From positions 434,001 through 498,000 of the forward strand of contig CM075993.1 of the NCBI GenBank assembly GCA_038087875.1: a stretch of 64,000 nt of DNA. The letters run 5' to 3'. This DNA comes from Malacoraja senta. Its lineage: Eukaryota. Each line of letters starts with the position of its first letter. Within the stretch, counting starts at the first letter, position 1. Shown piece by piece: positions 42,001 through 45,000 of the stretch. The position numbers are program-made.

Positions 42001-45000
42001 CCCACTTGTAAACAATAGTTTAAAATAAAAAGGTAGGATATTTCACCCAAAAACATGGAAATAAAAAAAATGCAGTTTACTCCTGCACAGTTACATGAAA
42101 TACCAACTCAACATAGGATACGTTTAAATCACACTATATTTGGTTTTACTGAAATAATTTCAATTTACCAAGTACAAATCCAGCATTACTCTGAGGGTAG
42201 CTAGGGTAGGTTACAAGACTCAGATTACAAGCGGCTTGCTCCTCTCTACAGGTGTTTGGAATCCTTTAGTGCCGTCTGGTCCTCTGGGCATACGTACTAC
42301 TCCTGCAGGCAGCCCGCCTGCACTGTGCATCTTTCTAGAAAGCATGGGGCTGCCAACTGGAGTATTCTCATGGGATACCCCCTGCGCTTGCTTCCGTCTC
42401 TGTACCCAGGGGCTGCCGGACGGTGTGTTGCTGCTGTCCGATGAATAGTCCGTCCACTTACTTGCAACCTCAGCATTTGCAGGAGCTCCAAGCTTAGCAT
42501 CTGCAGTGAGCGGAGATTTGTGCGCAGCCGTATCTTTCCGTTGCATCGATGGGCTGGAACGCGGACTGTTCCACGGACTAGCTCGGGGAGAAGTGTTAGG
42601 ACTCAGGTGATTGTTTTTATAGGTGTTGGGGCTCAGCTGATTAATGGGTTTGGGTTTGCGGCCAAGCATAGGAGATGCAGGGTTGCTCTCTGGTTCAGAA
42701 GAGCTGCATGCTGAGGAATCTTCATATATATACTGCAACTCCTCCACTCGCTTATTGCTTGATTTGCTTTTCATCTCATTCTTGCCAACATCTTCAGCCT
42801 CTTTGTTCTTCTCTCTGACAACTTTCTTCTTTGGTGGTTTCATCTCTATTAGCACCACTTTCATTCCCCCTTCATCGTTTTTCCAAGTGATTCATGTGCC
42901 TTGATTGCAGATTCAACATTTTTCATACTCTACAATTACACAGTCCTTTGTTCCCAACTGTGAATAGCGATTGCCCAGTCTTTTCACATCTGCAGGGAGC
43001 TCCTTCCCTGGCTTTATAACACGAACAGAGATGACTGGACCAAACACACCAAATGCCTTCAGTACGTACTCCATTATCCTTTCTTGCAAGCCAGCATTTT
43101 CACATTCTAGATTATCATTTAAAACCTGGAGTTCTGGACACAGAAGCATATCATATACCAGCAGTATCTGACTTGGAAGATGCTCACTTGGGAAAACTGG
43201 AACGGCTGTCTTCCGTCTCACTTTTTTCCCTTCATCATTTAGTTTCCAAAAGGTCAGAGTACTTCAGAGCAAAGGCAGTGTTTGCCAGTCACGAGTGAGG
43301 TGTTTTACCTAGAACAAAAGATTCCATTTTATCCATGCCTATTCAACAGGAATGAACACCTGGACGATTCACTTAATTATAGTAATGAAATATCAAAGCA
43401 GTTAAACCATTGCAGAGGGAATAGACAGACGATGCTTCGGCTGGGACCTTTCTTTAGATTGAAGGAGGGTTGAGAATGCTGATAAAGAGAGATGGGGAGG
43501 GGGCGAGGCATTGCAAGTGATAAGTGGAAACAGACCTCCGCTCTGTTCGCAAAATCCAACCTGATCTCCTGGTGGCTCAGCACTTCAACTCCCCCTCCCA
43601 TTCCGAATCCGACCTTTCTGTCCTGGGCCTCCTCCATGGCCAGAGTGAGGCCCACCGTAAATTGGAGGAGTAGCACCTCATATTTCGCTTGGGCAGTTTA
43701 CACCCCAGCGGTATGATCATTGACTTCTCCAATTTCAGGTAGTCCCTGCTTTCTTCTTCCCAGCTCTCCCCCAGCCCACTGTCTCCGCCCCTTCCTTTCT
43801 TCTTCCCGCCCCCCCCCCCCCTCACATCAGTCTGAAGAAGGGTCTCGGCCCGAAACGTCGCCTATTTCCTTCGCTCCAATAGATGCTGCCTCACCCGCTG
43901 AGATTCTCCAGTATTTCTGTCTACGGTGGATACAGACGAGAGGTTTGATGGGCAGATGAGTGGAATAACTTAAAAAGGCTGGAGGTGAAGAGGAGACTAT
44001 CAGATAATAAGAAAGAAATGTATAGCTGGGAGGGATGTGGGGTGCACAGGGATGGGCGGCGGCCTAATGCAAGGCCTCTTTCCCATACTGTATCTGTAAA
44101 CTAATTTAGGCTATCTAGACTACTGAGCCTGTCCTGCCATTATCAAGATCGAGGCTGATCACCTTCCTCAGCTTCACTTTACAATCCACATCCCTCAGTC
44201 CCCTATTATCCAGAAATCAATCATTGTCATTGGAAAGAATATAGCCTGAGGATTCCACTGATTCACTATCCTTTAAGGTGCACTTTTTTGATAAACTGTG
44301 CTCCCCGATCTCGGACTCCTAAGCCGTCTGATGTCAAGCCCAGGAGCCCTTTAACTATTTTGTTTAGATCTGCTCTCATCATTGTAAATTTGAGATTATA
44401 ATCCACTCACCCTATTCTACGGCAAACATCCCACTTTTGGAATAGTCTAGTGAACCTTCACTAGAATTCCACTATGGCAACTATTTTCATTCTTAGGTGA
44501 GACAAAAACTAGTAAATATGGCGTCACCAAGAACGTATAGAACTGAACTGATTTTTTTCTGTATTCAAATCCTCCAAATACTGTACTACATTCCTTTTGA
44601 ATGACTCGCTGCACCGGCTCGATGTTCAGTTACTTGTGCAAGAGCAAACTTCAGTCTCTTTGAACATCCACACTGCCCAGTTCCTTACAATTTAAAACTT
44701 TCTCCAGTCTGTTTGAGCATTAAAATGGCGACCGCACATTATATTCCATCTGCCATGTTCTTGCCCACTCACCCAGATTGTTTGTATCATCTTGACCCTC
44801 TGTCTTCATTGCTCGATCTCACCTTGTTTAGTGTTGGATGTGAATGATTTGGATGTGGTCAAACTAGGTGCCTATGTGGCTGTTGGATGAAATGAGGGCT
44901 TTATTCTGTTTGAATACATGGTAGTGATAACATTAAATGGTTTGCTGGCCCATTGCAATGGAACACAATAGTTAGTCTAGGGGCTAGTTCAGGGCAAGGA

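What the first reader, a model, noticed from the sequence alone, without database searches (positions are those of the whole stretch)
42878..43283. LARP6 exon 3 has two compensating frameshift pairs that create three in-frame TGA codons
Seen: relative to the LARP6 consensus there is a -1 at about 43279-43283 and a +1 at 43243-43245 (TAFALKYSDLLE lies off-frame). There is then a +1 at 42919-42923 and a -1 at 42878-42882 (NVESAIKAHESL lies off-frame). Each shifted window is about 40 nt, the net frame is preserved (1089-nt exon), and the downstream 214 codons are intact and conserved. All four indels are in or beside A-runs of the mRNA strand. I found no frameshifts in the other three genes. Options are (a) local homopolymer consensus errors, the most parsimonious; (b) recent loss of the collagen 5'-stem-loop-binding protein in a cartilaginous fish, with La module and RRM disrupted; (c) recoding or transcriptional slippage, least likely.
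Basis: partly seen in the sequence, partly recalled or inferred. Interest (0 to 1): 0.65.

Follow-up and report, generated by a model that had tools for sequence, protein, structure and literature searches.

The report
Likely assembly errors in skate LARP6
Four one-base length changes in short A-runs break the reading frame of an otherwise perfectly conserved skate LARP6 gene, and they look like sequence-production errors, not a real gene loss or recoding.

Summary
LARP6 lies on the minus strand in three exons. Its 1089-nt last exon (43308..42220) has three in-frame TGA codons. These arise from a -1/+1 pair and a +1/-1 pair of single-base changes in or beside A-runs. The two ~40-nt stretches between the paired changes, read off-frame, encode 11 of 12 and 13 of 14 residues of the Amblyraja radiata orthologue.

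No reads were available, so the verdict is indirect. I think the changes are artefacts of sequence production (homopolymer-length consensus errors). With outgroups, none of the 135 codons spanning the four indels carries an amino-acid change derived on the window's lineage, and only 2 of 362 do in the exon. All splice sites, the La motif, the RRM and the C-terminal SUZ-C motif are intact. Neutral decay would not give four indels without substitutions.

Recoding finds no support:
- no slippery heptamer at any site
- no downstream structure
- no SECIS
- an uninterrupted frame in all 12 relatives aligned

No frame break was found in about 4.1 kb of other coding sequence in the window. So the clustering and pairing (each p about 0.004-0.005) remain unexplained by independent errors. 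Interest is low.

The parts
46126..46505 (-). LARP6 exon 1 (ATG at 46505; 380 nt, ends in phase 2, GT donor)
   Evidence: tblastn of P0002, 92% identity with in-frame gaps only. Translation and donor checked.
45793..45979 (-). LARP6 exon 2 (187 nt), N-terminal two thirds of the La motif
   Evidence: Pfam PF05383 La, E 7.7e-14, profile positions 2-42 of 59. AG acceptor and GT donor.
42220..43308 (-). LARP6 exon 3 (1089 nt with stop): end of the La motif, RRM, linker, SUZ-C/LSA motif
   Evidence: The RRM part matches PDB 2mtg_A 'La-related protein 6', E 5.6e-27.
43277..43284 (-). Site 1: one base missing relative to the orthologue's frame (CAAACACT; Thr codon ACN followed by ACT)
   Evidence: Frame change between 43281 ACA (constant frame) and 43279 ACT (off-frame). 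P0002 reads WQTTAF.
43244..43279 (-). Off-frame stretch 1: 12 codons TAFALKYSDLLE, the end of the La motif
   Evidence: 11 of 12 identical to P0002. The one difference is derived in A. radiata. P0002's Pfam La domain runs to residue 202.
43243..43245 (-). Site 2: one extra A (GGAAACT, an A3 run)
   Evidence: P0002 reads LLELNDE.
43264..43266 (-). In-frame TGA 1 (exon-3 codon 15, about residue 204 of 551)
42919..42923 (-). Site 3: one extra A (an A5 run where GAA AAT is expected)
   Evidence: P0002 reads VEYENVES.
42879..42920 (-). Off-frame stretch 2: 14 codons NVESAIKAHESLGK, inside the RRM after the KDCVIVEY strand
   Evidence: 13 of 14 identical to P0002. The one difference is derived in A. 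radiata. The 2mtg chain extends beyond the aligned VEYE.
42878..42882 (-). Site 4: one A missing (an A5 run where GGA AAA AAC is expected)
   Evidence: P0002 reads LGKNDE.
42913..42915 (-). In-frame TGA 2
42892..42894 (-). In-frame TGA 3
42256..42300 (-). SUZ-C (LSA) motif near the C-terminus, intact
   Evidence: Pfam PF12901, E 2e-06, 27.8 bits against a cut-off of 21.1, residues 198-212 of the 223-aa frame.

Best explanation
The locus is the ordinary, functional LARP6 (A-type) orthologue of a skate. LARP6 is the RNA-binding protein with a La motif, an RRM and a C-terminal LSA/SUZ-C motif. The four single-base length changes in or beside short A-runs are errors made while the sequence was produced. 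Homopolymer-length miscalls in a locally poor consensus or polishing step are the most likely cause.

In the animal the exon would then read straight through as in Amblyraja radiata, and the three TGA codons would not exist.

Shown here: The ancestral-frame codons between them are unchanged. The gene is otherwise intact and under constraint.

Inferred, not shown: that reads would disagree with the assembly. I cannot name the step that produced the errors, or say why they fall in two compensating pairs.
For: 1. **Indel-only spectrum.** I read the two stretches in the orthologue's frame and polarised with 11 outgroup proteins. Exon 3 differs from A. radiata at 9 of 362 positions: 2 derived in the window, 4 derived in A. 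radiata, 3 ambiguous. In the 135 codons (positions 10-144) that hold all four indels there are 3 differences, all derived in A. radiata and none in the window.

   From recall, neutral vertebrate DNA gains several substitutions per indel. Four real indels should therefore come with many amino-acid changes. An indel-only, homopolymer-bound spectrum is typical of long-read consensus error. The abstracts of PMC12007338 and PMC8011154, seen in the listing, describe such gene-breaking errors.

2. **Everything else is intact.**
   - ATG and canonical GT/AG at all four splice junctions; exon phases fit.
   - La motif, RRM and SUZ-C motif.
   - The stop falls at the same ...SKPLVI end as in the orthologues.

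3. **All four sites are A-run length changes on the mRNA strand**.

4. **The relatives are uninterrupted.** The orthologue of the closest named relative and all 11 other LARP6 proteins aligned read straight through both stretches.
Against: - No read-level evidence was available, so nothing here shows the error directly.
- Independent errors do not explain the pattern. No frame break was found in about 4.1 kb of other matched coding sequence: 3523 nt counted, plus about 570 nt of LRRC49-like exons.
- The chance that four random events fall within one 406-nt span of 3929 nt is about 0.004. This is my arithmetic, 4r^3-3r^4, using the lengths.
- The chance that four random indels in the exon form two adjacent compensating pairs, each at most 45 nt apart, is 0.0047-0.0049 (Monte Carlo).
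- A local cause is therefore needed, such as a low-coverage patch, a polishing failure or later handling of the sequence. I could not identify it.
- Two of the runs are very short (a single or double base at site 1, A2->A3 at site 2). That is less typical of homopolymer miscalls than long runs are.
Confidence: 0.86

Rival explanations
1. Real, very recent inactivation of LARP6A in this skate. It would be either a fixed young pseudogene or a null allele on the assembled haplotype. Translation would stop at the first TGA (about residue 204) and leave a fragment with only the La motif.
For: - The four indels and three stops are present in the sequence as given.
- Most vertebrates are reported to carry a second gene, LARP6B (passages of PMC7928011). 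That gene could buffer a loss.
Against: - No window-derived amino-acid change in the 135 codons spanning the indels, and only 2 of 362 in the exon. This is fewer than on the A. radiata branch, which has 4.
- All splice sites, the start, the stop and the motifs are intact.
- Four independent germline indels in 406 nt with no accompanying substitutions are not expected from neutral decay.
- Once the first frameshift had killed the gene, nothing would select for exact compensation of each shift within about 40 nt, yet both are compensated.
Confidence: 0.05
2. Recoding. The gene would be expressed despite the shifts, by programmed ribosomal frameshifting at four sites (-1, +1, +1, -1), by transcriptional slippage in the A-runs, or by reading the constant frame with TGA decoded as selenocysteine or read through.
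For: - All four sites touch A-runs.
- Net frame is preserved.
- All three stops are TGA.
Against: - None of the four X_XXY_YYZ heptamers in 43308-42850 lies at a shift site.
- The 120 nt downstream of each site fold no better than shuffles (z -1.24, -0.01, +0.82, +0.89).
- No Rfam family, SECIS included, reaches the gathering score anywhere in the window. No SECIS match appears even at E<=10 in 39500-43400.
- From recall, A-runs of 3-5 are too short for appreciable slippage by a cellular RNA polymerase.
- The relatives encode the same peptides in one frame, so no conserved recoding device exists.
- The constant-frame reading replaces conserved La-motif and RRM residues.
Confidence: 0.01
3. Each compensating pair is one real, coupled mutational event, such as a misaligned replication or repair tract running between two A-runs. 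There would then be two events, not four, on a recent allele.
For: The exact pairing and similar spacing (36 and 42 nt) are unlikely for independent events (p about 0.005).
Against: - I know of no established mechanism that moves one base between two runs about 40 nt apart.
- Two such events in one exon with no other change remain improbable.
- The same pairing could equally come from an unidentified technical cause.
Confidence: 0.03

Closest known systems
LARP6 / la-related protein 6(a) of elasmobranchs, closest named: Amblyraja radiata la-related protein 6 (P0002)
   Same: - Same three-exon layout as inferred from tblastn.
- 91% identity over exon 3 in the constant frame.
- 353 of 362 positions identical when the two stretches are read in the orthologue's frame.
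- La motif, RRM and SUZ-C motif present.
- The neighbours TM2D3 and an LRRC49-like gene are also closest to skate proteins.
   Different: As assembled, the window's copy has four single-base length changes and three in-frame TGA codons. The A. radiata protein is uninterrupted. The species is not A. radiata: there are 9 differences in exon 3, and exon 1 is 92% identical with small in-frame gaps.
Gene-fragmenting homopolymer indel errors in long-read assemblies
   Same: Single-base length changes in homopolymer runs create frameshifts and premature stops in a gene that is otherwise conserved. The abstracts of PMC12007338 and PMC8011154, seen in the listing, describe this class of error.
   Different: - Those papers concern small or microbial genomes.
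- Here the errors are confined to one 406-nt stretch, form two exactly compensating pairs, and involve short runs.
- I have no reads to prove the case.
Compensated frameshifts in functional genes (a frameshift restored by a nearby second one)
   Same: There are two pairs of opposite-sign single-base indels 36 and 42 nt apart, and net frame is preserved.
   Different: In a functional compensated frameshift the shifted stretch must stay open and is translated as new sequence. Here each shifted stretch holds TGA stops in the constant frame. The ancestral-frame codons are untouched.

Membership tests
LARP6 (A type) | La motif | tested here: met
   Exon 2 alone matches Pfam PF05383 at E 7.7e-14, 51.7 bits against a cut-off of 37.1. 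The last part of the domain runs into off-frame stretch 1.
LARP6 (A type) | RRM directly after the La motif | tested here: met
   The 116-aa frame 42913-43263 matches PDB 2mtg_A 'La-related protein 6' at E 5.6e-27. Pfam itself gives no hit for this atypical RRM.
LARP6 (A type) | C-terminal LSA / SUZ-C motif. It is called diagnostic of LARP6 in passages of PMC7928011. | tested here: met
   PF12901 SUZ-C, E 2e-06, above the cut-off.
LARP6 (A type) | Closest relatives are LARP6/LARP6a orthologues | tested here: met
   352 proteins with E<=1e-10 among 1401 candidates. The top 15 listed are chondrichthyan; 14 are named la-related protein 6/6a and one (P0013) is unnamed.
LARP6 (A type) | Uninterrupted reading frame | tested here: not met
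   There are three in-frame TGA codons as assembled. I judge this to be an artefact.
Unitary pseudogene (real gene loss) | Relaxed constraint: excess amino-acid change on the lineage | tested here: not met
   2 of 362 positions derived in the window against 4 in A. radiata. None of the 135 codons around the indels is derived in the window.
Unitary pseudogene (real gene loss) | Inactivating changes confirmed in reads, or shared with sister species | not testable with these tools
   No reads and no eukaryotic DNA collection were on hand. The A. radiata protein is intact.
Programmed ribosomal frameshift | Slippery sequence at the shift site | tested here: not met
   None of the four X_XXY_YYZ heptamers in 43308-42850 coincides with a shift site.
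Programmed ribosomal frameshift | Stimulatory downstream RNA structure | tested here: not met
   z-scores of -1.24, -0.01, +0.82 and +0.89 for the 120 nt after each site.
Programmed ribosomal frameshift | The shift is conserved in relatives | tested here: not met
   All 12 relatives aligned read through in one frame.
Selenoprotein (TGA = Sec) | SECIS element in the 3' UTR | tested here: not met
   No Rfam hit at gathering score in the window. None of the 8 matches at E<=10 in 39500-43400 is a SECIS.
Homopolymer consensus error | Indels confined to homopolymer runs, with no substitutions | tested here: met
Homopolymer consensus error | Reads or k-mers disagree with the assembly at the sites | not testable with these tools
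   No reads were available.

The most novel reading that the evidence does not exclude
The four run-length changes are real in the sequenced skate. They would form a very young null allele of LARP6A, made by two coupled slippage events that each moved one A between neighbouring A-runs. This would show that a cartilaginous fish tolerates loss of the collagen-mRNA-binding LARP6A, perhaps because LARP6B remains. It would also point to an undescribed paired-indel mutational process.
Probability: 0.04. Interest if true: 0.5.

Novelty: not a real feature. Interest (0 to 1): 0.08.

Why it matters
If the changes are artefacts, the value is practical. An automatic annotation of this assembly would call LARP6 broken or low-quality, and a gene-loss screen could wrongly report that a skate has lost the collagen 5' stem-loop-binding protein. 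The case also shows a useful test when reads are lacking: polarise amino-acid changes with outgroups. Several indels with no lineage-specific substitutions point to error, not decay.

If the changes were real, this would be a natural knockout of LARP6A in a vertebrate whose skeleton is collagen-rich cartilage. That would be of moderate interest.

Tried and rejected
- **The species' own annotated protein.** I tried to list the members of P0002's 90% cluster, to see whether this species' LARP6 is there and perhaps flagged as low quality.
- **Timed-out search.** I used the gene's lineage-specific first exon instead.
- **Representative-library search.** The search with an LRR exon mostly returned unrelated multi-repeat LRR proteins. 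I used only 4 of the 150 listed (P0273, P0187, P0222, P0228), chosen for high identity and few matched stretches, as LRRC49-like comparators.
- **Transcript-derived LARP6.** No such protein from a close relative appeared among the 120 listed hits, so no cDNA-level check of the two stretches was possible.
- **Recoding.** Frameshift, slippage and Sec readings were tested and rejected.
- **Functional compensated frameshifts.** Rejected, because the shifted stretches contain stops.
- **LARP6B in this species.** Not tested, because no eukaryotic genome collection was on hand. Supplements were closed. Supplemental Table 1 of PMC7928011 lists the species used and might say whether cartilaginous fishes carry LARP6B.
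- **Spliced model.** I built no joined model. Exons were searched and translated one by one.

Full report
**What is there**

The window carries four vertebrate genes:
- a threonyl-tRNA-ligase-like gene (+, 16517..31242)
- TM2D3 (+, about 33020..38392)
- LARP6 (-, 46505..42220)
- the 5' part of an LRRC49-like gene (+, exons from 56962 to 63633)

The closest named proteins are from skates. For LARP6 it is Amblyraja radiata (P0002). For TM2D3 they are A. radiata and Rhinoraja longicauda. The window is identical to neither, so it comes from another skate. I did not try to identify the assembly.

**The observation**

LARP6 has three exons with canonical splice sites, and exon 3 is entered in phase 0. 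In that frame, exon 3 (43308..42220, 1089 nt) holds TGA codons at 43266-64, 42915-13 and 42894-92.

P0002 aligns to the constant frame without a gap over 362 codons at 91% identity. It fails only in two short stretches. Read off-frame, those stretches give:
- TAFALKYSDLLE (43279..43244), 11 of 12 identical to P0002
- NVESAIKAHESLGK (42920..42879), 13 of 14 identical to P0002

Four single-base changes follow from this: -1 in CAAACACT, +1 in GGAAACT, +1 in an A5 run and -1 in an A5 run.

**Is the gene decaying?**

I aligned the exon-3 translation with 12 LARP6 proteins. That is 12 of the 120 listed. I left out P0006, P0012, P0013 and P0016, which are short forms or isoforms.

I then compared position by position, using the off-frame codons for the two stretches. 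The window and A. radiata differ at 9 of 362 positions:

| Class of difference | Count |
|---|---|
| Derived in the window | 2 |
| Derived in A. radiata | 4 |
| Ambiguous | 3 |

Positions 10-144 contain all four indels. The three differences there are all derived in A. radiata. The window's lineage has none.

The La motif, the RRM (PDB 2mtg match) and the SUZ-C/LSA motif are present. Passages of PMC7928011 call the LSA diagnostic of LARP6. The protein ends as in the orthologues.

Four indels with no substitutions is not what neutral decay produces. That neutral vertebrate DNA gains several substitutions per indel is recalled, not computed here. The spectrum is, however, what homopolymer consensus errors look like (abstracts of PMC12007338 and PMC8011154, in the listing).

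**Recoding**

- None of the four X_XXY_YYZ heptamers in the region lies at a shift site.
- The 120 nt after each site fold no better than shuffled sequence (z from -1.24 to +0.89).
- Rfam finds nothing at gathering score in the whole window.
- Rfam finds no SECIS even at E<=10 in 39500-43400.
- All relatives encode these peptides in a single frame.

Recoding is rejected.

**What remains odd**

No frame break was found elsewhere:
- all 12 exons of the tRNA-ligase-like gene, matched to a transcript-derived protein (P0122 residues 1-529 of 531)
- TM2D3 residues 28-253 of 253 (residues 1-27 were not matched)
- four LRRC49-like exons
- LARP6 exons 1 and 2
- the remaining 655 nt of exon 3

So all four events lie in 406 nt out of about 4.5 kb of checked coding sequence.
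- Using the 3929 nt counted, four random events fall within some span that short with p of about 0.004 (my arithmetic).
- Weighting by A/T runs, the specified span holds 48 of 339 runs of 2 or more.
- Four random indels in the exon form two adjacent compensating pairs, each at most 45 nt apart, with p = 0.0047-0.0049 (Monte Carlo).

Neither independent sequencing errors nor independent mutations explain this. A local technical cause seems most likely, such as a poorly covered or patched stretch, a polishing failure or later handling. It cannot be shown here.

Selection cannot be the cause of the pairing, because the stops between the paired changes would make compensation useless.

**Verdict**

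This is an ordinary, constrained LARP6 orthologue with four probable sequence-production errors (confidence about 0.86). A real young null allele keeps about 0.05, a coupled mutational event about 0.03 and recoding about 0.01.

**Limits**

- No reads, RNA-seq or sister-species DNA were available.
- Paper supplements were closed.
Exons were handled one by one.

Noticed in passing
window 16517-31242 (+): The threonyl-tRNA-ligase-like gene encodes only an N-terminal coiled-coil-like extension plus the catalytic and anticodon-binding domains. This agrees with a 531-aa transcript-derived protein from a close relative (P0122).

The stingray and shark orthologues carry TGS and editing-domain exons (P0123 residues 80-314). 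These have no significant match in the window (best E 0.96). Only a 12-residue relic is seen, at 19926-19961 (E 2.8). Skates may have a paralogue that lacks the editing domain.
   Followed up: partly
window 46572-47819: A degenerate C-rich tandem array (periods 17-136 nt, 64-77% matches) lies directly upstream of LARP6 exon 1. It produces long open frames in several frames of both strands, for example a 667-aa P/Q/S-rich frame at 45899-47902. These are probably not genes.
   Followed up: partly
window 40371-40546: A palindromic hairpin gives sub-threshold matches to several unrelated miRNA-precursor families on both strands (best 61.9 bits against a gathering score of 195). It is most likely an inverted-repeat transposon relic about 1.7 kb downstream of the LARP6 stop codon.
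   Followed up: no
window 49738-50995 (+): Open frames resemble the endonuclease and reverse-transcriptase part of a non-LTR retroelement, between LARP6 and the LRRC49-like gene. This is judged from the translation only. Short related fragments recur across the window.
   Followed up: no
window 32287-32603: A run of 317 N lies in GC-rich sequence between the tRNA-ligase-like gene's 3' end and TM2D3 exon 1. TM2D3 residues 1-27 were not matched in the window.
   Followed up: no
window 30377-30490 (+): There is a one-codon, in-frame difference in a lysine (A-rich) run relative to P0122 (VPY-KKKN against VPYKKKKN). It could be a species difference, or another run-length miscall that happens to be a multiple of three.
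   Followed up: no
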